This document shows positions 7,012-64,000 of a stretch of DNA of 64,000 bases, piece by piece. A program made the translations under genes and the position numbers. Within the stretch, counting starts at the first letter, position 1, and every line of letters begins with the position of its first letter. The stretch covers positions 10,670 through 74,669 of the forward strand of contig JBARQV010000020.1 of the NCBI GenBank assembly GCA_049643885.1, written 5' to 3'. This DNA is from Candidatus Omnitrophota bacterium (GTDB taxonomy: Bacteria > Omnitrophota > Gorgyraeia > Tantalellales > Tantalellaceae). The notes under the pieces are model-generated. The model saw only the letters and a program-made list of their open reading frames with translations, had not been told where the DNA came from and made no database searches.

Positions 7012-7052
7012 TACAACAAGCGAGTGGTAAAAGGAGGGATTATTTTTTTGGC

Positions 7053-7094
7053 ATGTTAATAAATACATTTAATAAGTACAGGCAAAGGTGCTAA
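7053..7094 (+). other. Candidate 13-codon leader uORF (MLINTFNKYRQRC*). Its TAA (7092-7094) ends 1 nt before the giant-gene ATG at 7096
   Basis: The only canonical SD in the intergenic region (AAGGAGG, 7032-7037) sits 15 nt upstream of this ATG, not of the giant gene ATG. The giant gene itself has only a weak AAAGGTG. Confidence 0.25.
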
Positions 7095-7095
7095 A

Positions 7096-10000
7096 ATGAA
7101 GTACTTATCTCAAAACGCCACAGAACGCCGAGACCCCATGGGCGGTAAAGAGATGCTGGCAAACAAGGCATTCAGGAGCCCGAAAGCCAGGCCATGGATG
7201 AAGACTATCTCGTGTGTCATCATCCTTACATTTCTCTTCCAACAGGTGGTCTTTGGCCAGGAAATAACCCCTGCGGCACCAGCCGAAAAACCCATTGTAG
7301 TTAACGGCCGTATCGATCTCAGGCAGGTCTCTCTTCCGCGTGATATCGCTATCACTAAAGAAGTGAGCATGGCCAAAAGCGAAGAGATTATCATCGATAT
7401 AAAGGACGCCCACGACAATTTCGGCGCCCAGGAGTCCATAGTCGCGGCGCTTGAAAACCTCCTTATAAATTACGACGTCAAGTTCATCGGGGTAGAAGGC
7501 TCTGAAGGGTTGATCGATATGGGCCTGATCTCTTCTTTTCCCGACGAGGATATCAAAAAAGAAACCGCCGAATACCTTATGCGCCAGGGTAAGATATCGG
7601 CCGGTGAATTCTTCGCGGCGACCTCAAAGACGCCCATAATGCTCTACGGTATAGAAGATACCGATCTTTACCTCAGGAATTACACTGATTTTATAGCCCT
7701 CCATGAAAAGATGAAAAGTAACCTCAAGTATGTGGACGGCCTGAGAAGGGCTCTGTACGCGCTTGAAGACCACGTGTTTTCGGAAGAACTCAAAACTCTT
7801 AACAGGAGCTCGATCCTCAGTAAAAACGGGAACAACAGGTTCACCAGGCGGTGGGAGTATATCGAGAACCTCGGCAAGAAATACGGCGTCAGCATAGAAG
7901 AGTATGAAAATATCAGGGCCTTGATACACACGATGGTGATAGAGGACTCGATAGATTACAAGGCCGTCAACGCGCAGAGGGAAAAGCTCCTGGACATACT
8001 GACCAAACGGCTCCCGAGGGACCAGCTCGAGGAGCTCATCCTCAAGAGCCTGAACTTCAAACTCGGCAAAATATCGAAGAGCCAGTTCTATACTCACCTC
8101 TTGTTCCTTGCTAAGGGGGAGGAACTTGACAGGGAAACCTATGACAGCATCGAGGTCTTCTGCGATTTTGTGAACACGTATGAGTCTATAGACATCGGCA
8201 CCCTCATGGACGAGATCGATGAATATGAATGCAAGATAAAGGATAAGCTTTTCACAGGCGAAGAGGACCGGGAGCTCACGCATCTTTTAAAGAACGTGGA
8301 GATACTCCATAATCTTTACCAGGTCCGGCTTACCAGCGGACAGTTGAAGTATTTCCGGGAGAACAAGGAAGATTTCAGCTCCGAGATATTCCTGGATTTT
8401 ATAAAGGATACGTACCAGAAATACGGCATGCGCGTCCCGGAAAACCTCCGCAGGAACACGTATAAACTCTTCGAGATGCTTCCCCAGGGTATAGACTTTT
8501 ACGAAGCCGCCACCAAAAGGAACCGCGCTATGGTCGACAACACCATAAAGCAGATGCGGGAAAATGGTGTTACGGTGGGAGCGATAGTGACCGGGGGGTT
8601 CCATACGAGGGGCATATCCGAGGTGCTTAAGTCCGATGAGGTCTCTTACCTGATACTCCTGCCCCGGTTCAACGCTCGGAACAACAAACGCCCCTACATA
8701 ACCGTCCTGACGAACAAAGCCGCTGAGTATAAGCATTATGTGGAATCGGGCAGATACCTTGCCGCGTCCTCTTACTTTTCGATGATGCAGGGTATTTTGG
8801 AAGGCTCCGGCCAGGAGGATACGGCCCGCAAGACAAGACTTGAAGCCCTGGCCGTCATGATAGGCCTGTACAGCCAGGGAAGGAGGGAGAGAGGCACGTT
8901 CAGCCAGAGGATACTGAACAATATGAAAGAAAGGCTCATGGATCAGTTCAAGGCGGGCCAGGAGCAGAAGCTGAAAGCGGGACAGATCACCCAGGGACAA
9001 TACGAAAGCCTGGTAAATGAGATGGAGACGCTCCTGGATAATACGTTCGTGACCTGGAAAGGAGAGGTTCCCCAGGTATTTATTAAGTCCACGGAAGGCA
9101 ATTTCATGTATGCCGTTGAAGCGGAGAAGGTGGAAGGAGAGACAAAACCCGTTGTTATGCTCGCCGCGTATGATGGCATTTCGGGTAAAAAGATCGAGAG
9201 CGTGAAACTGGAGAGCCAGATAATGGAGGCGGAGCTTGCCGCGGGAGAAGCAATAGACATGGGCAAGGAACTCTTAGCCAGAGTCCAGAAACTGAAGAAC
9301 GAGCAGTTTTTAAAGAGGTTTGGCATTGAGGCGAAAGCCCAGCTGGAAATAGAGATACTCAAAGGCAAGCTGGCCGATGCCGAAGACCTTCAAGAATGGC
9401 TCGAAACTAAGCTGACGAAAATGGCGAACGCCATGCGTGTCGATAAAGGACAGGTAGAGGCCGAAGCCCAGAAGATAATAAGTAGCCGTGTAGAAGAACT
9501 GACTGCCACCCTTGCCCGGGCAAGAGAAGGGGAAGTGTCCCCAGCCAAGCGTGTTGGCGAAGCGGTAGCGACAAGAAAAGCCGCTGATGATCTAGAGAAG
9601 GAAGTCAGGGCAAGCAAAGAATTTCAAGATCTCGTAGCTAAAGCAGAAGAGCAGAAACCCTCGGATATGATGGGGTCTATCAAAGTTGTAAAGCACGATT
9701 TCAAAGGTACTGGAGTCGCCGCGTTCAACTACCGTGAAGGGGAAAGGACTGGCATCCTCAAAGAAGGCAGGACATTAGTTGTAGCGCTCAACCAAAGCTA
9801 TATAGATGAAGCGGTTAAAATGCTCGAAGCGGCAGGGATAACGGAGATCACCGTGACCGTTGTCGAAAGGAGGCGGAAGAAAGAAGTCAAGATGTCCGTG
9901 AGGGAAGCGCTTGAACAGGAACTTATAGATCATGAGAAAAAAGAGGATCACTGGGTAGCAAAGCGTAAGGTCGGTGAAAGGCGGGGGCACATTCTGGCAA

Positions 10001-13000
10001 GCGCGGAAACTGCTCTAACATGGAGAGCAAAAGAGTTGGGCGGCCTTTCTTTGTTCCATTACATAGAACTTAAAATGATGGGATTTGAACAGCTTGAGGC
10101 CCTGGCAAGAGAGGACAGGACTGACCAGCATAAGATACTCAAAAGTGCGAAGATGGATCAAGCCATAGGTTATGAAGAAAATATGCAAAAGGCCGCGAGA
10201 GAAGAGGCCGAGCGCAAGATGTCCCCAGAGGTCAAGAAAAAGAGAGAAGACGCCGCGGTCCTAGCCAAAAAAGACGCTGTCGATAAAGTCAGGGGCGTGT
10301 TTGTCAGTATACACACGCAGGTACAGGCCGAACTGAGCAAAGTCCAGGGCCTGATCGATTCAGGCAAGCTTGATGATGCAGCGAGCCTTATGAAAAAGAT
10401 ATATTCAAGGCTTGAAGATCAAATAAAAGCGGCAACGGGTAAAGTAGGAAAAACATCTCCGGAGATGCTCAATGAAAAGGCTGTCCAGGAAGCCCTGGAA
10501 ATGGCTGAGCTAGCTCCTAATGCCCTGAATAGGGAACTTTTAAGATCGCTTATGAACCGCGATGCGGGAGCGTTTCTAACGGCCTTGGGGAACGCTCAGA
10601 AGGGCCTTGACCTGGACGGAAGGCCTATAAAAACCACAGCGGATGCGGAAAGGGCAATGCAGGAGGCGAAGAGAAGACAGGAGGCCGCATATGGTTCCTG
10701 GCTTGCAGCTGGATATGAAGACCTGGCCTTTCAGTATATGAGACGCGCGGGGGATAGGTATAAAGACAGGGTCATGATAGAAAGTCTTGGCCGTGAGATT
10801 AAGATCAATACAGGCTTCTTATTATTTGATCTCATCGATGCCGTCAACGGTTACCGGCAAGGAAAGGTCAATGCCAATGTTATTATGCTTTTGACCCAGC
10901 TTTATCAGGTATCCCTGGATGCTAATGCTGAGGCTAAGGGAACTAAGGCGGCCAAATGGGCCGATCATCTGATGAGCGGATTAAAAAATGCGCAGGAGAG
11001 GGCGAAAGACCCTAAAGACCCGCTTCTGGAACAACGTAAGGATAAGGTCAGGAATCTTGATATTGGTAGTTTTATGGGTGAGATCGGCGGGATCATAAAA
11101 GTAGCGCGTGGCGAAAAAGCTAAGGCAGTCGAAAAAGCCCCAGCCGCCCCGGCGGCAGCAGCTGAAATCGAAACAACAAGTTCTGAATTCGCGAGCAATG
11201 TGATGAAAGCGGTCCAGGCCAGACTCGATGCTATTGTGGGTAAAGGCAAAATAGCTGCTAAAGTTCGGGAATACATCGCCCGTAATTATGTAAAAGTTCT
11301 GGGCAGGAGATACAAAGCTATAAGCGCAGACAGAATAGTCCCTGCGATAAATATTTTAATGAGAAATGAAGCGGAAGTTATAAAAATGCTCGAGGAGGCG
11401 CAGACCAGGGTGCTTGAAGCGCTCCACGAGGAAGCTGTGAAGTTTTATGATGAAAAGATCGCGATCCACGTTTCCAAAGCGAAAACTGCCGCTGACTACC
11501 TGCAGGAAGAAGGCTTATACAGTCAGCTGAGAACAAAGATGCAAGCCGCGATAGAAGTGCGTAAAAAAGGCGCCGAAGCAGGTGTTATTCTACGCGAATC
11601 CGGGATCATTGAAAAAATGGATAGCCTGGAGACAGATGGAATTAAAATGGCGGATGATGGCATAACAACGGCGCAAAAACGTCGTGCGAAATTAGCCGAG
11701 GCAGAAGCAAAGAAAAAAGTCGCCCCTGCCGCACCGGTCGCAGCTAAGGCAGAGGCGGATAGACGAGCTGCCGAAGCTAAGGCAGAGGCAGATAGAAAAG
11801 CCGCTGAAGCCAAAGCTAAGGCAGAGGCAGATAGACGAGCTGTTGAAGCAAAGGCAGAGGCAGATAGACAGGCCGCTGAAGCCAAGGCAGAGGCAGATAG
11901 AAAAGCCGCTGAAGCTAAGGCAGAGGCAGATAGAAAAGCCGCAGAAGCCGAAGCTAAGGCAGAGGCGGATAGACGAGCTGCCGAAGCTAAGGCAGAGGCA
12001 GATAGAAAAGCCGCTGAAGCAAAGGCAGAGGCAGACAGAAGAGCCGCTGAAGCCAAGACAGAGGCAGAGAGACGAGCCGAAGCAGAGGCCGAGGCAAGGA
12101 GAGAAGCCGAAGATGCCGAGGCAAGAAGGGAAGCCGAAGATGCCGAGGCAAGGAGGGAAGCCGAAGATGCCGAGGCAAGGAGAGACGCCGCAGAGGCCGC
12201 GGCCAGAGCCAGGGCTGAGGACGACGAGTGGGTAGCGGCTGAGCAGGAGATAAAGGATCTAAAGGCAAGGATCGAAGAGACCAGGGCTGATGCCAAAGCT
12301 GCGCGGGAGAAGGCTGAACAGCTGCAGGCAGACACCGGAGTGGCCATTTCCCCGGAAATGCGGGATGCTGCACGTGATGCTAAAGCGCGCCTGGACGCTG
12401 TCCAGAAAGATCTGGATGAAGCAGAAGCGGCAAGAGAAGAGGCCGCCAAAGAAGTAGACGATTTAAAGGAAAAAGCAGACGACCTGGCCAAAAAGGCCGA
12501 AGAAGCCGAAAAAGCCCCCGCCACCCCGGCGGCTGTAGTAGGAAAAGCGATCAGTCCCGAAGTACAGAAGGTGTTAGATGAGGGCGGTGTCGAGAGGTTT
12601 ATAGAAAAGAGGTTAGGAATTATTAGTCGTAATGAGACCGCTAATGCTATTCTTATGCTGGAAGAATTTTGTAACAGTCTTATCGAAAAAGGCATCGATC
12701 CGGCATCAGTTTTTGACGCCAAACAATTGTCAGATTTTAAAGCAAATATGGCTAACGGAATAGCACTTTTTAGCCAAATTGCGACTAATAAACAAATGAA
12801 AGCAACAGATTTTGCTAAGCAACTTGATGCTCTGATTATTGATAAGACATCTCCAATTGCCTCATCCTATTATGAACTTTTTGCAAAGTACATAAACATG
12901 GCGGAGCCAACATCGGCAGGTAGGGAAGCACGAGCTGGTAAAGTAAAAGAAGCGTTTGCTATGGCTATGGCTGGATTTATCAGAAGCGGTCTTGTGAATG

Positions 13001-16000
13001 CTATTGATGCTATTGAAAAAGGCCCTGCCGCTGAAGCCGCTCCCGCGGTAAGCGTCGCCGACCTCAAGGCAGAACTGGAAAAAGCAAAAAAAGAACTGGC
13101 CGCCGCCGAGAAAAAACTCACCGAGCAGCAAGGTAAAAAGTCCGAGAAGGAAGACGCAAGGAGCCAGGCCGCTGCTGCCGTGGCCGAGGCAGAAGCCAAG
13201 CTTGAAAAAGCCCTGGCGCAAGCGCCGGCGGAAGAAATGCCCGAGCAGGCCCGGGAGTTAAGGAAAAGGGCGGAAGGAGCGGAGGCTCAAGCGGGAAATT
13301 TACAGGAAAAGCTTAATGCCGCCATGGCAAGAGTCGAGAGAATGGCTCAGGCGAGAGCCGATCGAGCAGCGACTTATGAAGGCGCGCGTGAAGCCGCTCG
13401 CGAATCAGCGAGCAGGGACGCGAAACGCGAAGCAGAAAGAGAAAAACGCAAAGAAGCACGAGCGACAGCTGAAAAGCGTCTGGAAGAGAAAGAAGAAGCG
13501 GACAGGGAAGTTGAAAATCTTTCCGAAGAATTCAAAAATGCAAAGCAGAAACTTATCGAGGCGGAGTGGACAGAGATGGTGGCCGAGAAAAAAGCGGAAG
13601 ACACGGAATTTAAAGACGCATTGGAACAGGCCGCCGCCAGGGCGGAAAAGCCAAAAACGGATAAAGAAGTCAAAGTCGCCGAAGCCGTTAATGTCTTTGA
13701 TGAAATTGAATCCAGCCAGAAAGAGGCGGAACAAGCGCAGAGGGAAGAAAAAGACGCGCAGGAACGCTTAGATCAATGGAAAAACATTGCGTCAGACGTT
13801 AAGGCGCGGGTCGAGATATCGGAAGAACTTCAAAAGGATGAAGCTAAGCGGCTGGAAGCGGACAGCGCGCGTGAAAAAATGAAAGAAGCACAGGATAGAG
13901 TCGCAAGCCGCGAAGCTGGTATTAAATCGGTGGAAGATGCTGCCGATCTTATGGAAATCGACGTAAAGAAGCAGGCTGAGAAGGTCGCAGACGCGGACAT
14001 AAAAAGACTCCAGGGCGAACTTGCTTTTGCTGACGAAGAATTAGAAAATTCGGAAGAAGCACTTAAAAAAGTCAGGCAGCGTCTGCAATCCGAGGACGAA
14101 ATAGAAAAAGACGCAAAAGGAAGGCTGACCTCCGATGCTGCCGCAAAAGTGTTGCGTCTCGAGGATGCACTAGCCAGGAAAAAAGCAGAAATAAACAATA
14201 AAGTAGCTCTCGGTCTTGGTGAATGGGGCAAACTGGGATTGAATACCGGAGATCCTAAGTTAAATGCTGAAAGAAAGGCAGCGAAAGCGAAAGCCGAAGC
14301 CGCACGAGATGCCCTGGAGGAGGCGTTGGAGAAGGCACTTGGCAAGGCGAGAGAAGAGGTGAAAAAAGAATACAGAAAGGAAATCGAAACGCTTACCGAA
14401 GAAATAGGATCCAGAAAGGAAGAAAAGATTTCACTGGCAGCCGATATAAAAGGACTGCAGGAAGGAAAAAAAGACGGGAGTATTGCTGAAAAAGCGCTTG
14501 ATAAGCGCGACAAAGATGACCCAGACGGGCGGACTTTTAGGGAACAGATAGAAATGCAAAGAAGACAGGCGGAGTTAGATAGGAAGGACCTGGAAGCGGA
14601 GAAAAATAAACTCGAGGAAGCGGAAGAAGCATATTATAAAGTAGTCGATGGAATTGAGGTTGAGGTCGATGAGGAAATAGGCAGGCTCAGCATAAGACAG
14701 GCGAATGAAAAATTGGCGGAAGCGGAAGAATCGGCGCGCCTCGCAAGGGAAAAAAGAGAAGGGCTTGATAAGCATTTACAGGAAGTTACCGAAAAGGCGG
14801 CAGCAGCGGCTGTGGCAGCCGGTCTTCAAATTGTCGGCGGAAGATTGGTGTCTCAGGAACTTATAAAGGTAAGAAGGCAATATGAAATAGCGCAGAAAAT
14901 AAAGGCAAGGCGAGAAGGAAGAGTCTCGGAACTTGAAAAGAAACTCGCGGAAGCCGAAAAAGCGTCCCGCGAAGCTGAAGCGGAAATTGCCAAAGCAGAA
15001 GAAGCCGCTCCTGAAGAAAGAGCCCCTCCTGAAGCCAAAGAAGCAGAAGCCCCTCCTGAAGCCAAAGAAGAAGCCCCTCCTGAAGTCAAAGAAGAAGCCC
15101 CTGCCCCTGAAGACGCTACTGCCCGTGCCCGTGCCAGGATAGATAAAATACTGGCTGAAAGCACCAGGGCGGAAGCCATAAGCCTTCTTATCGTTCTTTC
15201 GAGAAGCGATGACGCTATCGAGGCGAAGCTCGCCCGGGAAGCCCTCGGCAATCTTCTTGAAGGCAAAGACAAGCTATCGGGCGATGTCAATAACCTTTTG
15301 ACTACGAGTGAAGGCAGGGAGGAGCTGCTGGTAATATACAACCGCCTTCGCGGTCAAACCCTTGACCCTGAAATATCAGCGGAAGAGCTTGCAAAGGTAC
15401 AGGAGTCCATAAAAATAATCGAAGCGATCCTTTGGTCCGCTTTACTGAAAACCGCAGATCCTGCTGTCACCGAAGGCGCGATTGATGTAAGCCGCCGTCA
15501 TATAGAAGCGGTGAGCGCATTACTCCAATCAAGAATAAAAAGGTTAGGAGCTGAACTTGATGATCTTCTCGCAATGGGAGATCAAAAGAATCCGATAGAC
15601 CTTCTCAGGCAGATAAGTGAGGCCAGGAGGATTGAAAAAGAGCTCAAGGCATGTGAAACCGCCATTAAGGATATAAACGATCGCAGGATCAGTCTCATGT
15701 CGGATACCCAGGTCCAGCTCAGAGATGAAGACGGGAAATTCATATTAGAGGATGTGTATAAAAAGATCGATGAGCGTGAGATCGAACTGAAACTCGCAAA
15801 AGACAAACTGACACGACTCAAGTCCAGGAACAGCTATTTTCTAATGACCATCAAATGGGGCTCGAAAGAGACAAAGAAAACGCTTGAGGATAAGAAACCG
15901 CTGGAGGCCGAAGGCCCGGACGGGAGGACATATTATGTCAATGCCTCGACAGGCCAGGCGGATAGATACAGCCAGGAAATAGTAGATGAGGCGTCCAAGC

Positions 16001-19000
16001 TTCGCGACGAAGTTTTGGGCATGAGAGAGATCGCCAAAGCCGTTGTAAAAAAGATGGCCTGGTGGAGGTGGGGCTCATTGGTAGCCTTGGTAACCGGAAA
16101 GAAAGCAAAGATCCGGAATGAGCTGAAGGACAGGCTGCAGGAATGGGCGCTACTATTGATGGAACTGCTTCCGAAAGAACAAGCGGATAGATTCAAGGAT
16201 GAACTGAAAATAATAGGCGAATACAACGAAAAAGAAAAGACGTTCACGATTCATGAAGGTTTCGATTTCAAAAATGCCGTCGATATTATAGATTATCTGG
16301 CCAAGGTATCTATGGTAACCGTCGGCATGAAGACCGAAGAGAGAACGGAAGAAGGAGTGACGAGAAAATTCTATTCATTCGATGATACGGCCGTTTCGCT
16401 GGGAACCGTGGACAAGGTATCGAAAGAAGTCGGTTCAGTCATGCATAAACTTAACCAGATACTGAATCCCGAACCAGTTTCCGATGAAGTCGATAAAGTC
16501 AGCGATGAACAAAAGAAGAAGGCTCAAGAAAAGGCCACTAAAGGGTTCAGCGACCTTCTTGTCAGGATCGACGAGGCATTTGGCGGCAGGCTCGATGCTG
16601 CCAAAAAGCAGAACCTTGTGGATGCAAAGAAGCTTATCGGTGAAATACTTGAAGAGGTAGAGAAGAAAGTAAGCCGCTCGGGCGTAATAATGACAAAGAC
16701 CCTCCAGCTCATCAAACTTTTAGATAATGTTGTTTACGGAAATTCCATTGGCAAAATAAAGGAATTTCTTGAGGTGCAGCTCGGAGTCGACAAGATCATC
16801 GAAGAGAAGGACATCGATGACATTATGAGAGGGCTCGGCGTAGATGATAAGGCGGAAATAGACCAGTGCGTAAAACACGTCCTTGAAAAAGTGGACAACA
16901 CAAAGAGAAGAGAAAGGCTTGCCGAATACATTGTAAAGTTCATGCTCACCGGACATATTAAACCGGAAAAGATGGAGTTTTTTAACGTGAGCCCGGCAGA
17001 ACGTCAAGGTCTTATAGACGAAATAAGTGTAGGCATCGAGTTGAGTGAAATGATCCGCGAGAGAAAGGAGGAGATCGCTGAAGAGCTGAAAAAGAGGAAA
17101 CAGCGTTTTTCCGACCCGAATAACAAGGATAACGAGCTTGTATACGAGTTCGTTGCCCTGTACCAGATGTCCGCTCTGCTTATGAAGGGCGAGTCGCCTT
17201 TCATCGAGCAGGTCCTGACGGGTCTTTTCATGGCCGACAGCTTTTTTGTGGATATGGCTACCGGAGCGGGGAAAACGCTTTCTTTTCCTCTGGCGAACAT
17301 GCTGACCAGGTGCAATTCGGACGGCGGGAAGCATCCCGAGGGGCTCAAGAGCATGCATCTCGTCACGCACGGTTATTATACCGAGAGGGATTTCAGGGAA
17401 ACACATTTCATTTACAAGATGATGGGATATAAAGTCGCGTATCTTACTGACGAAGACAGGGAACTTGAAGCGGCGCACAAGTCCCTGGGCGATAACGATG
17501 TCGTTATAACTTCCTATTCAGCCCTTAGTTTCCTGTGCCTGGAAGCGGGCAAGATGGACAATCCCAAGAGCAAAGACTGGTTCGAGCTCCTGCAAAAGAC
17601 AAGGCTTACCTTTGACGAATGCGATGTCGCGCCGAGACTTGCCGATTTCATAACCGCGGCGATGCAGAACAAGTTGAGTTTGAAAGAATACATGAAGTTA
17701 CACGTGCTTTTCAAGACCGCCGAAAAACTGCATGAAAAAGGAGGAATAAGCGCCATATACTCCCTGTTCGAAGATAATATCGTGGGCGTCCTGGATAAGC
17801 AGGACAGGGCAAATCTTGATAAGCTTCGGAAGATGCTGGGGTTTGAAGAAGAGCCGGACCAGGTGGAGATAAACGATAAAGGGAACATCGTAATAGAAGG
17901 TAAGGAATATACGAAAAAACAGCTCAAAAAAGCCAAACAAATAGCCGTGCAGGGCTCCAAGTTTCTTGTTAAGCATTCGGATCAAAAGGGTTTTGTTTTC
18001 ACCAGGATGGAATACACCGCCCCGGTGGATCTCGACCCGCGAAAGGTTAAAAAGCGCATGGAGGATACCGGTAAGACCGAAGAGGAAGTAGAGGAAGAGC
18101 TCCGGAAAGAAGCCCTCGGTGCCAGCGGGGCGAAGATCGACCTTGTCTCGAGGAGCGCGTACGGGAACGAAAGCACCAAAGATATGGTGGCCGGGATAAT
18201 GCGCAGTATCACGTTCGGCCTGACCAGTACCCTCGGTAAGGAAGTCATAGAGGATACACCGACATGGCAGGAGTTCCTGGATGTCGTCAAGGTCCTGTAT
18301 GTAGACGAGGAAAACGTCGATTACAGGCTCAAGTACCAGGAAAAGGACGAAGTGCCCGCTATTTCGGTAAGGGAAGTCGACGGTGAAGCGGTTGTGTTCA
18401 AAGGAGAACAGATCGTCGAACCCGCTTTTAACGTGGAACGCCGCGCGGACGGTTCGGTCCGTATCGGGGATGAGACGGCGTCATATGTCATCAGCGATCA
18501 GTTTTTCAAACAAAGAAAGACCGATGATGAAAGGGTCATCTTTCTCGGTGGTAAACGGTACAGGGTCTCAAAAGGCAAGAAAGGCGGATACGAGCTCCAG
18601 GAAGTCGCTATGGAGATAGTCCTTCTTGATGAACAGACAAAGAGGGAACAGGGAAAGCAGAGGAAGGATACGTTCCACACGCTTTATGAGATGAAACACC
18701 ACCTGAAGAGAGACAGGCCGGATACGCCGGAGATAAGGGGCGATAACAAGAGTTCTGACCAGTGGAATATCGCTAACGTTGTCGATAAGGCGCATTCACT
18801 CGGTGGCGCCAGCGGATCGGTCAAGGACGCGGCAAGGGTGATGCTTGGTTTCTTCGGGAAGAAATGTAAACCCAGGATAAAGAAACTGCCCCCGCCTATC
18901 GCCAAAAAGGGAGCGCATAGACAGGGCATTTTCGTGCCGAGTGACAAAAGATTGTGGCAGGTAACGCTTAACAGGATAAAGCAGATATACACGCTTTCCC

Positions 19001-22000
19001 CAGGGGCGAGCATGATCATATACTTTGACGATATTGGCCAGGCGAAGGAGTTCGAGAAGGAACTGAATAAGATAGTGGACAACGAGGAATTCGAAAAATT
19101 GGCGGGTGGGAAAGTGAATGTGAACGTGTTCGACGACGAAGGACAGAAGGAAATAGACCTTGTCGAGCAGGCGGGAAAACGGAACACGATAACTTTAGCC
19201 GATTCAAAGCTCGGCCGTGCGACCAACGTGCGGCTTGCGGAAATTGTGGGTTTTAATCCTGCCAATTCCTCAAAAGCCCTAAGGGAATATTTAATGAGGA
19301 CACTTATAGATGAACCTGTCAGCAGGGGGGAAGTGCTGAGTGATGAAGAGAAACAAAAAACCCTGAAGACAATCGATCATTACGTCAAAGAATTCGTAGG
19401 CGTCCTGGCAGGTGTGTACCAAGAAGACGGGAAAGATAACGTAGGACTTTTTTATGAAACGGATGTCGCTTCGAGGGAAGTGAAGAGGCGCAAGGTGGAA
19501 GATTTCCTCAGGAAGATCGGCGTGGGTGAAGAAAGCGAGGTCTGGGATATAGTAAGAAGAAAATACATCGACGGACTATTTCTCATAGACCTTTCGCCGG
19601 ACGGCAACCTGCAGGCGAAAGAACAGAAGTTCGGCAGGAACATGAGGGCGGGCGATACAGGTTATGTCGATCCCATATATTCCCTACAGGAAGAGTCGAA
19701 GTTCTACACGATGGTCATGAAGCTGTACGATAAAGATTATAACCAGCAGTGGGGCCCCATACGCAGGTGGTGGAACGGAAGAATATTCACCGAATTCCAG
19801 AGAAATGTCGAAAGGCTGAAAGCGCTTGAGGAGAAAATGTACGATGAAAACGGTCATCGCAGGGCCGATGTGACCGAAAACGATCTGAATGAATGGGTTG
19901 AACTGCAGAGATATTTTTCGGATCTTCTGCTCAAGGTAAGGGTGGAGTGGCAGAGAAGGGCCGATAACGCGGCTATACGGGAAGTGAATAATAAGAGAAA
20001 GATGAGAGAAGAGCTTGAAAAGGTGAGTTTAATGCTCCCGGAGTTTTATAAAGCGGTTGAAGTTGATCCGACAGTAGCCGATGATCTAGTGATAAAAAGA
20101 CTGGAAAGGTTATTCGACAAGTATTTTGACCTGGAGCGCATGGATAAAGAAAGCGGAGTGATCGACCTTAAGGACTTGATCGGCACTATCGAACAAGAGT
20201 TCAAGCTGCGTCTCAAATTGTCGGAAAAGAGGAACCAGATCACTTTAAATCCGACAAACGATCAAGAAGCCAGGGACGAGCTCCGCTGGCGGCGGGACAT
20301 GTATATGGCGATATTTTTAAAGGCGATCGGCTCACTGGGGAGCGTAAGGATGAGCCCGAGAGAAGAGACAGTGCTTCAGGCGGGAAGGGACGCTTTCCAT
20401 CTTGAGATCGACGAAAAAGGTGTGTTAAGCCTCAAGTCACTGGTGCGAAATCAGCCTGACGGGTCAAAGGCTGAATTCAAAGCGGAAGAGCTGCCCGATG
20501 GTTCAGTGATCATCGCGGGGAAGGAATACGATGTGGTCCGTGAACCGGGCAGTGTTAAGTTGGTCGATCCGGAAACAGAACAGATCCAGTGGGAATTCAA
20601 CATAAAAGCTGGCATAAACGCGGCGGGCAGGCGGTTCTTCGCGGTGACTCTGGCGGGAGCGTATTTGGAAGCCATCAAGGAAGTATATAAGAACGGATTT
20701 GAGGCGCTTAAGTCGAAGATCATCCGCGAATTCCGGACTTACGGAAAAATAGTCAAGGTAGACACTTCAGAGAACGGCCTGGCCGATAGCGCGGAGGAAC
20801 AGGCGCTTGAAAGTTATAAGGACAGAGTCGCCGGCACTGCGACTTATGATACCGAGGCGTCTTTGGCGGTGATCGATGAGGCAGCTGAAGATATTGATAA
20901 AGGACTGGAGGAAGTTGGCGATAGACTGGCAAAGGAAAGGCAAAAGGATGAGGACCAGGGAGATAAGAGGTTGGAGAACGAACGCGGATGGGTTCCCCTT
21001 AAGCAGGAGGCCTCATCCAGAAAAGCGGCGAAAAAGGTCGAAAGAAAGGTAAGGGCGCCCCATGAACATGAAATGGGCCTGGAGATCCCCGCGCAGATCG
21101 TGGCTTCCAGGGAAAGAAATACTGATGAGGATTGGCATACCAGTGAGGTGGACCTTGATGAGGAATTTGAAGAAATGGAAGTAGAAGGAGAAAGGCCTTC
21201 CGTGGCTGCCGATGACGTGTCTGTTGCTGTGGTTGAAAAAGACCTCGCAAGAAAGGCCGGTAAGGATGATACTGCGAGGAAAGACAGGGAGAAGGAGAGC
21301 GTTGCCGCTCACAGGAGAAGGATCGTAGATGAAGGCGTGATCGATGTAAAGCATGCCGAGGGAGCGGTTGTCGCCACGAATAAAGGTGAAGTAAGACCCG
21401 TAAGCGAAGCCGAGGTGATACAGGGCGCGGACATTATAGCAGGGACGACTCCCGCCAAACCGCCTGAGCAGGTCCTGTCTGAAGGGGGAGTCGTTGTTTT
21501 TACAAGTGAAATGGCGTGGAATGAGCTTGGTGAAGCCGGACAAAAAGAGCTTATAGGAGAACTCCGTGAAAGGTTTCCCGGCATGTATGTGACATTCGAA
21601 GGCTGCGCGCCGAGAGGCGGCGCGCTCGGCACAGAAGAAGGAAGAGTTAATATTACAGGCCTGCGTGTATTCCATCCTTCCGCCGTGAAGGCGCTGGAGA
21701 AGGAAAAGGCGTCATTTGAGGATGAAGCTTTCAAGAAGGCGAAAGCGGGTGCCGAAAGAAGAGGCGAGGCGTTTACAGCGGACGAAGGTGGTGACGTGGT
21801 ATCACAGGAAAAGCTTGAAGGCGCTTTAGGCATTTCACCCAAAAAGGGTGAAAAAATATCCATCAGGAGGGTAGGAGATTCGTTTTTTCTTGTCGCCGAC
21901 ACGAAAGACGGTATTGTGGTGAGAAGTCTGGGTGGAGATGTCTATGGCCAGACAAGGCTTGCCATTGTCCGCGCGAACGAAAAGCTTTCAGCTAAGGACG

Positions 22001-25000
22001 AGGAAAGCGGGAAGAAAGGCATACAGGAGGGAGAATACGTCCTCGATAAAGACGGTATTTACAGTAGATCCACGGGCGTTCCCGGAGAATATGTGGTTAA
22101 ATTCGATAATATAATCACGGACAACGTTCCTGAAAAAGAGGTTATAGAGAGATTGCCTATGCCGCTGAAAGAAGCGCCCGGACCCGCGATATTAACGGGC
22201 GGTGTAATAGGCATCCCGCGATATTTAGGTACCAGTATCTTATCGCTCCTGAGAGGACTCAGGGACAGTATCGGTGATGCATGGGACTGGTTAATAGAAC
22301 GGCATCAATTGGTGCAGTCAAGATTCGTGACGTCCTGGAGAAATGTCTCGGGTATCGGGAGCGGACTTATTTTTGGTCTTTGGCTGTTAAGAAGAGCTCT
22401 TGGCATTCCCATGGACATCCTCAAATTCATATTTCATGATACAAAAAGACGTTTCGCTGTCCTGGGAGAGTGGATAAACGCGCGGTATAACAGAGCGATG
22501 TCCGAGATGGAACAGAGATGGAAAAGGGAAGACCCGAAGTACCAGCTCAGGGTTTACAGGCTTGAAGCGGTCGCAAAAGACAAGGACGCATCGTGGGCGT
22601 CAAAAGCCCTGGCGAATGTCAGATTATGGTGGCTTGGAAGGAGACTGGGGAGATGGAAGGGCACAGGATGGCATATTGCCCTGCGCGCGTATCAGGGCGC
22701 GCTGTTGGCCGCCAGAGCCGCCCAGGGGGTGTTATGGTTAGGGAAGAAAGCGGTACAACTTGTAACTTACGGGTGGTTTTACTGGCCCTGGTCAGCTTTG
22801 GATAAACGGCTCAAGGCCAGGCGGGCAAGAAGGGAAGTTGAACCAAAACCCGAAGAGGTCGTAAATATCCGGTTGCCTGATACTCTTCGCACGCCCGGGA
22901 AGCCTTCCGAAAAGGCCGAAGAAATAACAGATCTGGCCGAGAGTCTCACGGGCGAGAGGCTTTCCGGGGTTGAAAAGACAGGTCTCTTGGACAAGTTGCG
23001 GGAATACCTGGAGGCGGAAGGAGAGTACAGGTACGCATTAGGTTTCGGCGATGTCGGCGGGATAGCAAATATACTCGCCGATATGTACTTTTACGAAGTA
23101 AACAAAAAACCGGAGCATAAAGATTCTGCCGCCCGGTTGGGCCGCACGCTCTTTGGATTACACGAAAAAGAGGCGAAGGCCGCAAAAGAAGATGAAAAGA
23201 ATGAAATCCAGAAAAAGAAAGCCGAAAGGGCAAGGATACTCGCACAGAATTATATCGCCCTTGCGTCCGCATTAGACAAAAAAGACATTGACGTGAAAAC
23301 ACTCAGGGCGGTCACGCTGTACGCGGCCGGAGATAAGGAAGGCGCGAAAAAGATACTTGATAAGATAAAACTGGGTAATATACCCGACAGGGACGTCAGG
23401 AGGATGGCTTACGCTACTATGGCAAAGATGCTGGAGGATGAGAAGGATTATAATAGGGCCGCCGGTATGATCCAAAAAGCGAAGGGTTTGACGGAAGAAG
23501 ACAAAGTGACCGTGGCCGGTGAGGAGATAGAATTATCGGTGAAAAAACAGGGCGAACTTAAGAAACAGGCTTCGGAGAAAAAAGAAGAAAAAGTAAGCTT
23601 GCTTAATAGGGTAAAGAGGTTACTCTTCCCTGAAGCGGGGGCGTCTAAAAAACAAAAGGCAATAGGATTCGGGATATTTGTTGGGCTTTTCCTGCTCGCG
23701 ATATTGGCCCCGCAATTCCTGCCTCTTGTTTATTTGGGTTTTACGGCGCCTCCCGTTGTAACGGGCATTTGGAGCCTTGTTGCTATATCAGCACCGGTCT
23801 TTTATAACAAATTGCTTGTACAGTTAGCCATGTGGGTATTCAAGTACGCTGCAAGTCGGGTCAGGAACTGGACGACTAATAATTTTACACTGGGAAGGAT
23901 GTTGGCCCGCGAGATATCCGCCCAGAAGCGGGCGCCGGAGAAGGCAGAGCCGAGGATAAAACTTGTGAAAGCCTACGAGGAAGCGGGCGAGCAGAAAAAA
24001 GCGGAAAAACTTATCAAGAAAACCATGCGGATGATAAGAAAGGACCGCATGAGTCCGGAAGAAGCGGCGAAGTTTATAGAATATTTATTGGAGAAAGGCA
24101 AGGTTGACGAAGCGAAAGAACTTTTCATCCGCATTTATCCTCGCGTACCGGTCGATAAGGTTCCCGTGCCCTTACTGATACTCAGGGCGAAGATGGCCCT
24201 GAGAGATGAGCCGCTGGACCCGGTGAAAATGGCCGGTGAGCCGGAAGACCCGATCGAGATAGCCGCCGCAAGCGCCGACGGGGTCTTAAGCAGGGAACCT
24301 GAAAATGCCGAAGCGCTTTTATTGAAGGGCGAAGCCCTGGCCAAGAGATTTGAGAAGGAAGAGAAAAAAGATAAAAAGACGCCGGGCGAGTTCAATGATA
24401 TCCTCGCGAAATTGACAGAGCTTACAGAACGGGGGCTCCTGACTCCTGAACAGGAAAGGAGGGCCAGCGAGATGGAGATAGCCAAAGCCGTTAAGCCCGA
24501 AGATAGCGACAGGGCGGTCTGGAAAAAGGCCAAGGAGACAAAGGTCGGTGAGGCGGTCCCTGAAAAACCCAAGATGGCCGAAGAGCCTGCCAAGCCCGAA
24601 ACTCATAAGCCCGCGATGGAAGACCTGGAAAAGCTTAAAAAGGAGAAAAAGCTGAGCCCGTCAGATCGCCTTGCCCTTGCGGTGCTTTACATGGAAAACA
24701 AAGACTGGCGGAAAGCCCTTAATCTGCTACGGGCAATGCCGCAGGACGCGCCCGAGAAAGCCGAGGCTTTAAAGAGGATGGCCATGTGTTGCTACAGGAT
24801 GCTTGAGGATCCCAAATGGTGGTACCTCACATTGATAACGAGATTGAGGATGACGTCCGCGATAAACGGTCTGAGGAGTATCAAAGGGCAGGAAGAATGG
24901 GCCGACTGGATCGAAAGCACCATCAAAGGTTTTGACATTAGTAAGGCAAAGGCCGCGAGCGAGAAGATATCATATACTCCCAAACCCGAGGACAAAGAGC

Positions 25001-28000
25001 TGACCGGTGAACAAGGTTTAAATAACGAACTATTCACACTCGGCGTCGAAAGGGCCATCGCTTCAAAGAAGGACGAGATCGATACCGTCAATTGGGTGGG
25101 TGGCATTTTGAGCGAAGCGCAAATACCCGAAGCAGAAAAAGGGAAAATGCGGGCAAATCTGGACAAAAAGAAGAGCGCGGCTGCATCAAAGGAGTTACTC
25201 CGGGATATCCAGAAAGAGAAGAAAGCTAAATACGTGATGGTAAGTGATCTGCGAAAGCTAAGGAACAGAAAACGCAGGGCATTATCGGCGGATGAGAAAA
25301 TGTCTTTGGGTAGACAGATCGAAGAAACAGAAAAAGATATCAGTGACAAGCGCGCGAGGATATTGAAGATGTACACAGAACTCATCAATCAAAACGCGGG
25401 AAGGCCTGAGGTCATAGAGCAAGTAAGGAGGGAAATGGCCTCGGAGATCGGTGAGATAGCCGGTATGATGAAAAAAGAGGAAGATTTCACCCCGGAGAGA
25501 TTTACAAGCATCATTTTAAGCTTGGATGACAGGGTTTTGGTGGAAGATCTTTCGGAAGGAGGCAGGGATGCCTACGCTCTATTTTTAGAAAACTGGACAG
25601 AGTATATGGGGCAAAAACTGGGCATGTCCTATGAAAAAGACAAAGTGCCTGCAGAGCTTGAAGTAGGCAAAATGGACGTTTTCACGCAGCAAGTGACTAT
25701 GCTTCTTTTGATGTATCCCGGCGCAGATGAAAACCTTAAGCGGCAGATAGAAAAAATATTGAAAGAGATCTCCGGATTCAAGCTTTTCGGAAATTGGGAT
25801 AAAGAGGAAAAGGAATACACCCGGAAACCGATTTTTGACGTCATAGCCAGTATGATCCGTAGAAAAGATATCCCATCACTCCGCTTCCTTTGGGCGGGAC
25901 TCCAGATCGCGGAAGCCGGGAAAATAAGCAAAGATGATCTTAAAGAAAATCTCAAAGATAGGGCTGACGCGGCGCTACTTTTAAACGCGCCTTTAACCTC
26001 TTTAAAAAGCAAGGTTGTAGATCCCAAACAAGATGTAAGAGAAAAAGCGTTCAATCTGCTGTTATCTATAGTTAATTTCTGGTTCGGAGACGGCGCTGAT
26101 CGTGCGGTAGATGAATTGCTTGCTGAAATCATATCGAAAGAGACGCTTACCCCGGACGATATTAGCAGGATCCAGCGTGTGCTTGCTCAGGTAAGACTCA
26201 TGCCTGTTATGTATGATAATCAGAGGCAGTTTATCGAATATCTGGTGGGGTTAAAAGAGGTGCCTTTGAACAAGAAATTGGAAGCCATCGATAAGTGCGG
26301 TCTTTCGCCCAGGGAGAAGCTTGAGGTCCTGATCTCCTTAATGGAAAAAGAAAAGTTCACGGGAGACGACCTTTATATCGCCCTTGATAACCTGAAAAAA
26401 CGGACCGGCGAGGTCGAGCCGCAGGACCTGAAGGATCTTGAGAACAGTTTAACCAGGCTTCTAGAGGCTCTGCCCCCCGACAGGGATGCTCTTGTCAAGG
26501 GGATAGAAGTGATCAATGTTATTTCATCCAAAGCGACTAAGGAAATACCCATTGCCCACAAGGGTGTTTTTGAGACGTTAAGGCCCAGATTGGAAAAAGT
26601 TATGCTGGAAGAGATGAAGAAAAGCGAGAAGGCCGAGGTCGGACTTATGCTGGAAGAGATCGAACGCCAGGAAGCGATCGCGGCAAGGTTGGGGGAAATG
26701 GGTGAATACGGGCAAGCCCAGAAAATACTGGAAAAGGCGATCGAGCGTTTGAATGATGTGCTTAAAAAGAATATGGAATTAGCGCGAAAAGGAGAAGAGT
26801 TATATGCCAAAGACCAGGTCCTCAGGTTAGTAGACAAGGTTAATGTTCTTACCGGGAAGGTGACAGAGTTTTACAGAAGACAGGGTAAACATTACGAGGC
26901 GGAAATACTTGTTGTCAGGGGATACAGGCTCCTGGCCGAGTACGGGATAATCGTGGAAGGCCTGGCGGATGTTTCGGAATATACCCAGAAGGCCGAGGAA
27001 GCCCTGGTGAACGCGAACATGCTCAATCCCTACCAGCCGGAAGTCGCGCTGGAGATGATGAGGATAAAAGCTTTGAGTCTCAGGGTAGCGAGACGGGAGT
27101 TAGAAGAATCCGAAAAGTCTGTTAAAGAAGACGAAGAAAAAAAGGAAGAAATGGATTCTCAAATAGCGGCTTTGGATGAAGAGATAAACAAGGCAAAAAG
27201 TGATCTAGACCGCAAAAGAAGGATAAGAGATGCCGAGTTTGCCCTGAGGGAAGCCCAGGCGATAGCCGGTGACGAGCGCGCGGAGCAAAACATCCGCAGG
27301 CAGGAACTGGAAAAGGAAATGGAGCCTATAAAGGTCCCTGAAGATAAGAAAAGAGCCCTGGAGCGGGACAGGGCGGATGTTGAAGCCAGGCTGGACAAAG
27401 CGCGCAAGAAGAGAGACGCCTTAAAGAGTAGGGAAGTACACATACTTACTTATGAAAACGCGCCGATCGAAGAGGGGGCAGAATGGGCTTTTACGGTCTT
27501 GTCGAGGAGCGGGTATGACCGCGAAAAAGCGGAAGTAAAAGAAGCCATAGGATTTCTTGCTTCCCTGCCCGCCGGTTATGACGGCAGGATATTGAGCGGT
27601 ATAGGCCTTATGAGGACAAGGGCGGGCGCTTTGAGTGGGAAAGACAGGCATCAACGGGACGCTTTTATAGATAACCTTATTCTTGATATTTATTTCAGGG
27701 GAGATAAAACGAAGATGCTCGAGGCGATAGATAGTATAGTAAAAGCCGCCGAAGAAGGGAAAACCGAGATAAACATATTCGGCGGGGATTTCAATGTGAA
27801 CTTTGTCCTGGGATATATAGTGAATAAAATGAACCAGGTCATTAAAGAAGCTCCTGAAGAAGAAAAACAGAAACTGCAGAATGAACTTATCATCAAGCTG
27901 ATAGACGCGCTGAAGAGGATCCGGAGGCTTGATATGCCTTTCCTTGAAGCGGATCTATTCTCCAAAGTTTATACACAGCTGGAAGCCGAAAAAGACGAGG

Positions 28001-36434: not shown

Positions 36435-64000
<27,566 letters not shown>

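What the first reader, a model, noticed from the sequence alone, without database searches (positions are those of the whole stretch)
17200..19720. Motif-complete but divergent SecA-like DEAD motor buried in the middle of a 9423-aa membrane protein
By-eye alignment recovers SecA motifs I, Ia, II, III-like, V and VI in the right order; the individual matches are listed on the feature at 17200-19720. NBD1 and NBD2 are separated by a ~230-aa insert, which could be a preprotein-binding-like domain. A translocase-type ATPase fused into a giant secreted or membrane protein suggests self-driven export, or ATP-driven remodelling of the giant protein itself. Omnitrophota giant genes are reported to contain divergent SecA DEAD domains, but the function is unknown.
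Basis: partly seen in the sequence, partly recalled or inferred. Interest (0 to 1): 0.85.

Follow-up and report, generated by a model that had tools for sequence, protein, structure and literature searches.

The report
SecA-derived ATPase inside giant protein
The middle of a 9,423-residue membrane-anchored protein, probably from an Omnitrophota bacterium, holds a divergent but motif-complete copy of the SecA protein-export motor without its channel-docking tail, a kind of domain already reported in these giant genes and still of unknown function.

Summary
Residues 3357-4214 of the 9,423-aa ORF (window 17164-19737) are a SecA-type motor.

- **Sequence:** Pfam SecA_DEAD scores 45 bits against a cut-off of 24.6. 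A family profile aligns to canonical SecA at E 1e-27 and E 3e-13.
- **Motifs:** Walker A, DECD, motif III, motif V Arg and motif VI GRxxRxGD are invariant in ten relatives that share only 26-49% identity.
- **Insert:** it is about 375 aa, not about 230, and lies inside NBD1 at the position of the preprotein-binding domain (PPXD). Only its last ~75 aa are demonstrably PPXD.
- **Missing parts:** no scaffold, wing, two-helix-finger or zinc tail is detectable.

I read it as a SecA-derived, probably active ATP-driven polypeptide clamp, tethered by the giant's own membrane helices and not a canonical SecYEG-docking SecA. Its substrate and its side of the membrane are unresolved: hydropathy places it outside the cell here but inside in one relative.

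Divergent SecA_DEAD domains in Omnitrophota giants were reported in 2023, so this is a new member of a known kind. Interest is moderate.

The parts
7096..35367 (+). Giant ORF of 9,423 aa that carries the module
   Evidence: Uninterrupted ORF. Homologous over aa 3099-5981 to a giant ORF in locus L001. Same architecture in P0002, P0003, P0007, P0008 and L003-L007.
7198..7254 (+). Signal-peptide-like or signal-anchor-like hydrophobic segment (aa 35-53) with a positively charged N-flank
   Evidence: Hydropathy 1.76. N-flank +4/-0, C-flank +1/-2. The same feature occurs in P0002, P0003/L005, L004 and L007.
17164..19737 (+). SecA-type motor: NBD1, PPXD-position insert and NBD2 (aa 3357-4214)
17164..17640 (+). 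NBD1, N-terminal part (aa 3357-3515), with the Q-like motif, Walker A, motif Ia and Walker B
   Evidence: hhalign module 28-157 aligns to E. coli SecA 72-191, prob 97.9%. 27 invariant columns in the family.
17254..17277 (+). Walker A MATGAGKT (K3393, T3394)
   Evidence: Aligns to E. coli EMRTGEGKT, residues 101-109. TGxGKT is invariant in the family. Coordinates.
17611..17625 (+). Walker B / motif II FDECD (D3507, E3508)
   Evidence: DECD is invariant in all family members. By position it corresponds to SecA DEVD; this correspondence was made by eye, because MAFFT misplaced it in A4.
17641..18762 (+). Insert of about 375 aa at the PPXD position inside NBD1 (aa 3516-3889). The first ~300 aa are family-specific.
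   Evidence: Lies between motif II and motif III. The N-terminal part shows no significant match to SecA 185-335 and no Pfam SecA_PP_bind hit. Modelled with mixed helix and strand at pLDDT about 50-87.
18535..18762 (+). PPXD core (aa 3814-3889), including the signature EIVLLDEQTKREQGKQRKDTFHTLYEMKH (18613-18699)
   Evidence: hhalign alignment starts at E. coli SecA 319 and covers [31 protein letters not shown]. 13 invariant family columns. P0012, a 917-aa SecA-like protein, aligns here with iE 1e-10.
18763..18882 (+). NBD1, C-terminal part (aa 3890-3929), with motif III GGASGS at 18802-18819
   Evidence: Aligns to E. coli GMTGTA, residues 389-394. GxSGSV is invariant.
18883..19737 (+). NBD2 (aa 3930-4214), with motif V (19186-19230) and motif VI (19624-19662)
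   Evidence: hhalign to E. coli SecA about 400-600. LGRAT and GRxxRxGD are invariant. R4041, R4181 and R4184 align to E. coli R509, R574 and R577. Pfam P-loop_SecA is sub-threshold at 15-18 bits.
19249..19560 (+). Family-variable helical insert in NBD2 between motifs V and VI (aa 4052-4155)
   Evidence: Left unaligned by hhalign against SecA. Low family conservation, 0.34. Helices in the model.
19738..20127 (+). Family-specific helical extension after NBD2 (aa 4215-4344), with a helix of 51-63 residues. Not detectably the SecA scaffold or wing.
   Evidence: hhalign against E. coli SecA 595-901 gives prob 0.3%. Model 2 has pLDDT 82, and Foldseek finds no SecA hit. No Pfam SecA_SW hit.
20341..20655 (+). 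Small beta domain downstream of the helices (aa ~4416-4520)
   Evidence: Strands 222-325 of model 2. Only weak lipocalin-like Foldseek hits, E 3e-3 or weaker.
22366..22422 (+). Weak hydrophobic segment 'TM-A' (aa 5091-5109) in a Trp-rich region
   Evidence: Hydropathy 1.42, C-flank more positive. A counterpart occurs at a similar distance after the module in relatives.
23674..23832 (+). Hydrophobic hairpin (aa 5527-5545 and 5561-5579) about 1,200 aa after the motor
   Evidence: Hydropathy 2.37 and 1.46, with positive charges on both outer flanks. The position is conserved in relatives.
24667..31791 (+). Long region with scattered TPR repeats (aa ~5858-8232)
   Evidence: Pfam TPR_1, TPR_2, TPR_8, TPR_19 and related families above cut-off.
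33604..33912 (+). C-terminal cluster of 3-4 hydrophobic helices (aa 8837-8939)
   Evidence: Hydropathy 1.6-2.2. A similar cluster occurs near the C-terminus of P0002 and P0007.

Best explanation
Residues ~3357-4214 of the giant protein are a SecA-derived motor. It has two RecA-like nucleotide-binding domains, and a preprotein-binding-domain (PPXD) homologue is inserted into the first, as in SecA.

**Shown:**
- It is homologous to SecA and has the SecA fold.
- It retains every residue class that SecA uses to bind and hydrolyse ATP.
- It retains the conserved core of the PPXD.
- It lacks detectable scaffold, wing, two-helix-finger and zinc-tail domains.
- The module is conserved in a small family of Omnitrophota-labelled giant proteins. 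In all of them a cluster of hydrophobic helices follows 750-1,200 residues downstream.

**Inferred:**
- It is an active ATPase.
- ATP-driven opening and closing of the NBD cleft is coupled to the enlarged PPXD 'clamp', which grips or moves an unfolded polypeptide segment.
[quoted passage not shown] - It is not a canonical SecYEG-docking SecA.
For: **Identity**
- Pfam SecA_DEAD 45 bits against a cut-off of 24.6.
- All significant PDB sequence hits are SecA, with two colinear stretches.
- NCBIfam best hits are secA2 and secA.
- The family profile hits canonical SecAs at E 6e-22.
- hhalign prob 99.8% with E 1e-27 over E. coli SecA 319-634, and prob 97.9% with E 3e-13 over 72-191.
- The AlphaFold model has pLDDT 77.8 and pTM 0.62.
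- Foldseek: top 36 PDB hits are all SecA/SecA2, E 1e-17 to 1e-7, with DinG next at 2e-6.

**Catalytic competence**
- Across ten non-redundant relatives at 26-49% identity, invariant columns concentrate on Q3372, TGxGKT, DECD, SGS, LGRAT and GRxxRxGD.
- The inserts and the C-terminal helices have almost no invariant columns.

**PPXD**
- The signature aligns to E. coli 331-361 and is invariant in the family.

**Tethering**
- Hydrophobic helices recur at a similar distance after the module in all members.
- Positive-inside charges flank the 5527/5561 hairpin on both sides.
- One relative, L004, has three extra helices between the N-terminal domain and the module. That would place the module in the cytoplasm.

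**Literature**
- The same class of domain, and the same hypothesis, is in West-Roberts et al. 2023.
Against: - No biochemical data exist. ATPase activity and polypeptide binding are inferred from conservation only.
- In this protein no hydrophobic helix separates the signal-peptide-like N-terminus (aa 35-53) from the module. Together with the charge bias at aa 5091, naive topology puts the ATPase outside the cytoplasm, where there is no ATP.
- The SecA elements that contact SecY and push the substrate (two-helix finger, scaffold) are not detectable, so the mode of force transmission is unknown.
- Some SecA-specific residues are not conserved. The ESRRID segment before motif VI, including R566, is replaced, and D512 is Asn here.
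- About 300 aa of the insert have no detectable relation to the PPXD.
- Topology rests on hydropathy alone.
Confidence: 0.55

Rival explanations
1. The module is exported together with the N-terminal ~5,000 residues, as the naive topology says. It works outside the producer's cytoplasm, for example after delivery into a prey or host cell, where it would use the victim's ATP.
For: - A signal-peptide-like N-terminus with a positive N-flank occurs here and in P0002, P0003, L004 and L007.
- No hydrophobic helix lies between it and the module in the window protein, P0002 or L007.
- The charge bias at aa 5091 fits an out-to-in helix, and the bias at 5527/5561 fits an in-out-in hairpin. That gives a self-consistent model with aa 54-5090 outside.
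- Omnitrophota are proposed predators or parasites.
Against: - No ATP is available in the periplasm or the medium.
- L004 has three helices before the module, which implies a cytoplasmic location for a homologous domain.
- The hydropathy analysis is crude.
- No precedent or delivery machinery is identified in this window.
Confidence: 0.1
2. It is a generic SF2 helicase or nucleic-acid translocase that merely resembles SecA.
For: - Pfam DEAD gives a weak hit of 17-22 bits.
Against: - The DEAD hit is below its cut-off of 26, and Helicase_C is not hit.
- The SecA-specific PPXD signature is present and invariant.
- The best sequence neighbours outside the family are all SecA.
Confidence: 0.05
3. 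It is a decayed, catalytically dead SecA relic that serves only as a structural spacer in the giant protein.
For: - The module is very divergent, at about 11-22% identity to SecA.
- It carries large inserts, has lost the C-terminal domains, and shows some SecA-specific residues changed.
Against: - All nucleotide-binding and catalytic motifs are strictly invariant across relatives that share only 26% identity.
- The flanks and inserts drift freely. This is the pattern expected of an enzyme under selection.
Confidence: 0.05
4. It is a normal secA or secA2 gene that appears fused into a giant ORF through assembly or gene-calling error.
For: None beyond the general risk that comes with metagenome assemblies.
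Against: - The 28-kb frame is open throughout, and base composition is uniform.
- The same embedded arrangement recurs in independent assemblies from several sources.
- NCBIfam secA and secA2 scores are 47-50 bits against cut-offs of 800-930.
- The C-terminal SecA domains are absent.
Confidence: 0.01

Closest known systems
Divergent SecA_DEAD / SecA preprotein-binding domains of Omnitrophota giant proteins (West-Roberts et al. 2023, bioRxiv 10.1101/2023.11.21.568195; PF07517 architecture cluster in bioRxiv 10.64898/2026.06.07.730766)
   Same: - A SecA-type motor embedded in a very long protein that bears transmembrane helices.
- No scaffold or wing domain.
- Very divergent from canonical SecA.
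- Relatives are labelled Candidatus Omnitrophota.
- TPR repeats occur elsewhere in the protein.
   Different: - This protein is 9.4 kaa, whereas the 2023 paper emphasises proteins above 30 kaa.
- The module sits mid-protein, upstream of the first hydrophobic cluster. The paper describes the domains as following C-terminal anchors.
- Pfam SecA_PP_bind is not hit here.
- The module belongs to a rare sub-family: 11 proteins with E <= 1e-10 among 1.84 billion representatives.
- No direct sequence comparison with the published giants was possible.
Canonical SecA preprotein translocase ATPase (E. coli SecA; PDB 2fsf, 3bxz, 1tf5, 5eul)
   Same: - NBD1-PPXD-NBD2 order, with the PPXD inserted in NBD1.
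- Walker A, Walker B, motifs III, V and VI, and the PPXD core signature are all present.
   Different: - It is not a stand-alone soluble protein.
- The PPXD position is enlarged by about 215 aa, and there is an extra ~105-aa insert in NBD2.
- No detectable HSD, HWD, two-helix finger or zinc tail.
- ESRRID and R566 are not conserved.
- NCBIfam equivalog score is 47 bits against a cut-off of 800.
Accessory SecA2 (M. tuberculosis 4uaq, C. difficile 6t4h; TIGR03714)
   Same: - Best NCBIfam E-value, 1.6e-13.
- SecA2 is also a reduced SecA paralogue with a dedicated substrate set. That last point rests on my own knowledge.
   Different: - Score of 50 bits against a cut-off of 930.
- SecA2 is a free protein of 700-800 aa that keeps the scaffold helix.
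- No accessory Sec genes are in the window.
P0012, an unnamed 917-aa stand-alone divergent SecA-like protein from metagenomes
   Same: It is the closest non-family sequence: E 1.5e-9, with iE 1e-10 over the PPXD core, motif III and NBD2 at 28% identity.
   Different: - It keeps a SecA-like C-terminal region. This was seen by eye in the alignment.
- It has a canonical-length PPXD.
- It is not part of a giant ORF.

Membership tests
Canonical SecA (TIGR00963 / PRK12904) | NBD1 with Walker A and B, recognised by Pfam SecA_DEAD (PF07517) | tested here: met
   45 bits against a gathering cut-off of 24.6, E about 1e-11. hhalign prob 97.9% to E. coli 72-191.
Canonical SecA (TIGR00963 / PRK12904) | Preprotein-binding domain (PF01043) inserted in NBD1 between motifs II and III | tested here: inconclusive
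   The position is correct, and the C-terminal ~75 aa align to E. coli 319-378 within an E 1e-27 alignment. Pfam SecA_PP_bind is not hit, and the first ~300 aa of the insert show no significant match.
Canonical SecA (TIGR00963 / PRK12904) | NBD2 with motif V and motif VI arginines (PF21090) | tested here: met
Canonical SecA (TIGR00963 / PRK12904) | Helical scaffold, helical wing and two-helix finger (PF07516 SecA_SW) | tested here: not met
   No Pfam hit. hhalign prob 0.3% against E. coli 595-901. A separate model of aa 4195-4650 (pLDDT 82) finds no SecA by Foldseek. A structural analogue of the long scaffold helix is not excluded.
Canonical SecA (TIGR00963 / PRK12904) | Full-length equivalog score and stand-alone ~800-1,000-aa protein | tested here: not met
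   TIGR00963 scores 47 bits against a cut-off of 800, and PRK12904 scores 39 against 814. The module is internal to a 9,423-aa ORF.
Accessory SecA2 (TIGR03714 / TIGR04221) | Equivalog score above cut-off | tested here: not met
   50 bits against a cut-off of 930, and 27 bits against a cut-off of 725.
[quoted passage not shown] | SecA_DEAD-type motor without scaffold or wing, inside a very long ORF with transmembrane helices | tested here: met
.
[quoted passage not shown] | Host genome belongs to Omnitrophota and also encodes a normal SecA and SecYEG | not testable with these tools
   The window holds only three giant ORFs and one small ORF, with no marker genes. Named relatives are Candidatus Omnitrophota, but the one genome-collection hit is labelled 'uncultured Planctomycetia'.
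[quoted passage not shown] | Falls in the published giant-protein SecA clade | not tested
DEAD-box / SF2 helicases (PF00270 + PF00271) | DEAD and Helicase_C domains above cut-off | tested here: not met
   DEAD scores 16-22 bits against a cut-off of 26, and Helicase_C is not hit. Helicases rank below SecA in both fold searches.

The most novel reading that the evidence does not exclude
The SecA-derived ATPase is exported with the N-terminal ~5,000 residues of the giant protein, as the signal-peptide-like N-terminus and the lack of any intervening helix suggest. It then operates in another cell's cytoplasm. On this reading it would be a predator-delivered, prey-ATP-powered polypeptide motor that pulls or threads the giant protein into the prey.
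Probability: 0.07. Interest if true: 0.9.

Novelty: new member of a known kind. Interest (0 to 1): 0.5.

Why it matters
How bacteria make, insert and export proteins of ten thousand residues or more is an open problem. A built-in SecA-derived motor is the most concrete lead so far.

This instance is compact and cleanly delimited. It has a defined core of about 860 aa with every catalytic motif intact, an enlarged clamp domain and no SecY-docking parts. That makes it a practical construct for ATPase and peptide-binding assays.

It would also show which parts of SecA are dispensable when the motor is tethered in cis. The contradictory topology predictions within one family point to a specific experiment, locating the domain, that would separate a self-export model from an effector model.

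Tried and rejected
- **Pfam on long chunks.** A 4,800-aa chunk lost the SecA_DEAD hit entirely. It returned with chunks of 1,000-1,200 aa, so long-chunk scans were not trusted.
- **Pfam on sub-fragments.** SecA_PP_bind, SecA_SW and Helicase_C gave nothing, and P-loop_SecA was sub-threshold.
- **hhalign on two sub-regions.** Neither the C-terminal helices against SecA 595-901 nor the insert's N-part against SecA 185-335 was significant.
- **Separate model of aa 4195-4650.** Foldseek found no SecA scaffold or wing, only weak lipocalin-like hits to a small beta domain.
- **Second SecA-like module.** None was found in the other two giant ORFs or elsewhere in this ORF, using blastp and phmmer, a family HMM and a canonical-SecA HMM run with --max.
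- **Word-index protein searches.** The first found only one fragment, P0001. The second, run with the family profile, added only canonical SecAs. The giant relatives came from the exhaustive search.
- **Alignment problems.** MAFFT misplaced Walker B of the canonical SecAs in A4, so motif II correspondence rests on position and family invariance.
- **N-terminal domain.** My recollection that the shared N-terminal domain resembles TraB/TIKI/ChaN-type hydrolases found no support in Pfam or in a PDB profile search. I dropped it.
- **RNA genes.** Rfam and tRNA scans of the window were empty.
- **Gene context.** Upstream genes in L004 gave one TPR/SH3 protein and one ORF with no hit, so no informative context.
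- **Rival readings.** Helicase, dead-relic and assembly-artefact readings were considered and rejected, for the reasons given under the rival explanations.

Full report
**1. What is in the window**

Nearly all of the window is three giant + strand ORFs.
- 2..6910 is the last 2,302 aa of a gene that runs off the left end.
- 7096..35367 encodes 9,423 aa.
- A frame open from 36309 to the right end encodes at least 9,230 aa.

Base composition is even, with a strong purine excess on the + strand throughout. The finding (17200-19720) covers aa 3369-4208 of the middle ORF.

**2. Checking the observation**

Scanned in pieces of 1,000-1,200 aa, the region hits Pfam SecA_DEAD at 45 bits against a gathering cut-off of 24.6, E about 1e-11. 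The match covers aa ~3321-3482. The same hit vanishes when a 4,800-aa piece is scanned.

- All significant PDB sequence matches are SecA, with two colinear stretches at Walker A and motif V.
- The best NCBIfam hits are secA2 and secA, at 47-50 bits. These are far below their equivalog cut-offs of 800-930.
I verified their coordinates by translation. They are Q-like PFIEQV, Walker A MATGAGKT, HLVTHGYYTERD, Walker B FDECD, motif III GGASGS, motif V TITLADSKLGRATNV and motif VI QKFGRNMRAGDTG.

**3. Relatives**

An exhaustive HMMER pass over 1.84 billion representative proteins found only 21 hits at E <= 1e-3, and 11 at E <= 1e-10.
- The strong hits are other very long proteins and fragments of such proteins. 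The long ones are P0002 (7,055 aa), P0003 (5,332), P0004 (at least 2,781), P0007 (7,334) and P0008 (at least 4,748).
- The next tier is SecA itself and a divergent 917-aa SecA-like protein, P0012.
- One genome-collection locus (L001) and five metagenome loci (L003-L007) carry the same module at 36-49% identity.
- Every relative that has a source name is 'Candidatus Omnitrophota/Omnitrophica'. L001 is labelled 'uncultured Planctomycetia'.
- Homology between the window protein and L001 spans aa 3099-5981, so the whole central part of the giant is conserved, not only the motor.
- The window's own protein is not in the searched databases.

**4. Homology to SecA, domain by domain**

A seven-member family profile hits canonical SecAs down to E 6e-22 in a database of 5.8 billion proteins. 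I then ran profile-profile comparisons against a 15-member SecA alignment headed by E. coli SecA.

| Module positions (add 3329 for protein residue numbers) | E. coli SecA | Result |
|---|---|---|
| 486-909 | 319-634 (second half of the PPXD, rest of NBD1 with motif III, all of NBD2) | prob 99.8%, E 1e-27 |
| 28-157 | 72-191 | prob 97.9%, E 3e-13 |
| 150-500 (first ~300 aa of the insert) | 185-335 | not significant |
| 870-1111 (region after NBD2) | 595-901 | prob 0.3% |

The PPXD hallmark is recognisable as EIVLLDEQTKREQGKQRKDTFHTLYEMKH, against E. coli [31 protein letters not shown].

The insert therefore lies inside NBD1, between motifs II and III, exactly where SecA carries its PPXD. There are 392 residues from Walker B to motif III, against 177 in E. 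coli. Only the C-terminal ~75 residues of the insert are demonstrably PPXD. A second, family-variable insert of ~105 aa lies between motifs V and VI.

**5. Structure**

An AlphaFold2 model of aa 3330-4440 was built from a 22-row alignment. It reached mean pLDDT 77.8 and pTM 0.62.
- Foldseek against the PDB returned SecA or SecA2 for the top 36 hits, E 1e-17 to 1e-7. DinG, DdmD and XPD followed from 2e-6.

A second model covered aa 4195-4650 (pLDDT 81.9). It shows a 28-residue helix, a 63-residue helix, further helices and a small beta domain. Foldseek found nothing at E < 1e-3 and no SecA scaffold, wing or two-helix finger. The long helix could be a structural analogue of the SecA scaffold helix, but I could not test that.

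**6. Is it likely to be active?**

I compared ten non-redundant family members at 26-49% identity to the window. Invariant columns cluster on Q3372, FVD..TGxGKT, LTxDECD, the PPXD core (L..R....QR.D..HT.YE), GxSGSV, LGRATxV and GR..R.GD.
- The NBD and PPXD-core blocks carry 11-27 invariant columns each, and the short NBD1 C-terminal segment with motif III carries 6.
- The much longer insert and C-terminal blocks carry 0-6.

This is the signature of selection on nucleotide binding and hydrolysis and on the clamp core. Equivalences to E. coli follow from the alignments:
- K108/T109 correspond to K3393/T3394, and D209/E210 to D3507/E3508.
- R509 corresponds to R4041, R574 to R4181 and R577 to R4184.

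Differences from E. coli:
- DEVD is DECD here, and TGT is SGS.
- D512 is Asn in the window, although it is Asp in several relatives.
- The ESRRID segment, including R566, is not conserved.

**7. Architecture and the topology problem**

By hydropathy, the protein starts with a signal-peptide-like segment at aa 35-53, with a positive N-flank. No hydrophobic helix follows until a weak one at aa 5091, then a hairpin at 5527/5561 and a cluster at 8837-8939. TPR repeats lie between the last two.

In every relative a hydrophobic cluster follows the module by about 750-1,200 residues. Taken literally, the N-terminal signal plus the flank charges give a self-consistent model in which aa 54-5090, including the ATPase, lie outside the cytoplasm. 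That is hard to reconcile with an ATPase under selection.

One relative, L004, has three extra helices between the N-terminal domain and the module. That would put the same module inside the cell. Hydropathy cannot settle this, and I treat it as the main unexplained point.

**8. Mechanism**

*Shown:* a SecA-derived NBD1-PPXD-NBD2 unit with intact catalytic motifs, no detectable SecY-docking C-terminal domains, and a conserved position upstream of membrane helices.

*Inferred:* it hydrolyses ATP. It uses the cleft motion to operate an enlarged polypeptide clamp at the membrane. It is tethered in cis and acts on the giant protein itself or a partner.

I give this reading 0.55 overall. Identity as a SecA-derived motor is about 0.95, and the mechanism is much less certain. 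The rivals are an exported or prey-delivered motor (0.10), a nucleic-acid helicase (0.05), a dead relic (0.05) and an assembly artefact (0.01).

**9. Comparison with what is known**

West-Roberts et al. (bioRxiv 2023.11.21.568195) already report several of these points.
- Most Omnitrophota giant genes encode divergent SecA DEAD helicase and preprotein-binding domains that lack the scaffold and wing.
- These domains form a long-branched clade separate from the organisms' normal SecA.
- They may serve export of the giant protein itself.

A 2026 preprint lists a 20-protein PF07517-only architecture cluster among long Omnitrophota proteins.

The present case fits that class. It differs in four details:
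- The protein is 9.4 kaa.
- The module is mid-protein, before the membrane helices.
- Pfam PP_bind is not detectable.
- The sub-family is rare.

It fails membership of canonical SecA and SecA2, with no C-terminal domains and equivalog scores about 20-fold below cut-off. It also fails membership of DEAD-box helicases.

**10. Verdict**

The functional interpretation is plausible but untested. Novelty is 'new member of a known kind', and interest is moderate at 0.5.

The value lies in a compact, well-delimited construct for testing what these embedded SecA motors do, and in the sharp topology question.

Noticed in passing
window 2-6910, 7096-35367, 36309-64000 (+): Three giant ORFs lie in tandem on one strand: the last 2,302 aa of one, a complete 9,423-aa ORF, and one of at least 9,230 aa that runs off the right end. 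Its probable start is the ATG at 36435. Only the middle ORF has a SecA-like module.
   Followed up: partly
window 7255-8895 and 36624-38288 (+); also L004:2843-4480 and L007:953-2590: The second and third giants share only an N-terminal domain of about 530 aa, directly after a signal-peptide-like segment (35% identity). The same domain heads P0002, P0003, L004 and L007. Conserved motifs include IxIKDAHDN..AQxSIV, VEGSxG and TGGFHTxG. No Pfam or PDB sequence match was found.
   Followed up: partly
window 35570-35929 (-): A 120-aa ORF between the two giant genes, on the opposite strand, is a 23S rRNA-intervening-sequence protein (four-helix-bundle family, Pfam PF05635, E 5e-21). A terminator-like hairpin lies at 35456-35430 on the - strand.
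   Followed up: partly
window 11743-12219 (+), aa 1550-1708 of the giant: An Ala/Glu/Lys/Arg-rich tandem repeat (AEAKAEADRKA... then EARREAEDA...) lies within a long, highly charged and probably coiled-coil region. This is also where the AT skew of the window peaks.
   Followed up: no
window 7096-21495 scanned as one protein: The SecA_DEAD hit (45 bits in a 1,000-aa piece) disappears completely when the same region is scanned inside a 4,800-aa piece. Pipelines that scan whole giant proteins may therefore under-report such domains.
   Followed up: yes
L004, ORF aa 851-920: One relative carries three strong hydrophobic helices between the N-terminal domain and the SecA-like module. They are absent from the window protein, P0002 and L007. 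This implies opposite sides of the membrane for a homologous ATPase if the predictions are taken literally.
   Followed up: partly
L005 versus L006 (both match P0003): Two contigs from different samples appear to carry the same gene, with identical ORF starts and module coordinates. They differ in that the frame stops at ORF aa 5360 in L005 but stays open to the locus end in L006. This is either a real truncation or a sequencing error.
   Followed up: no
window 20341-20655 (+), aa ~4416-4520: A small, confidently modelled beta domain lies downstream of the motor. Its only Foldseek resemblance is a weak one to lipocalin-like barrels, E 3e-3 or weaker.
   Followed up: partly
window 33913-35364 (+), aa 8940-9423: The C-terminal ~480 aa after the last hydrophobic cluster have no significant Pfam hit. 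By eye they look conserved at the C-terminal ends of P0002 and P0007.
   Followed up: no
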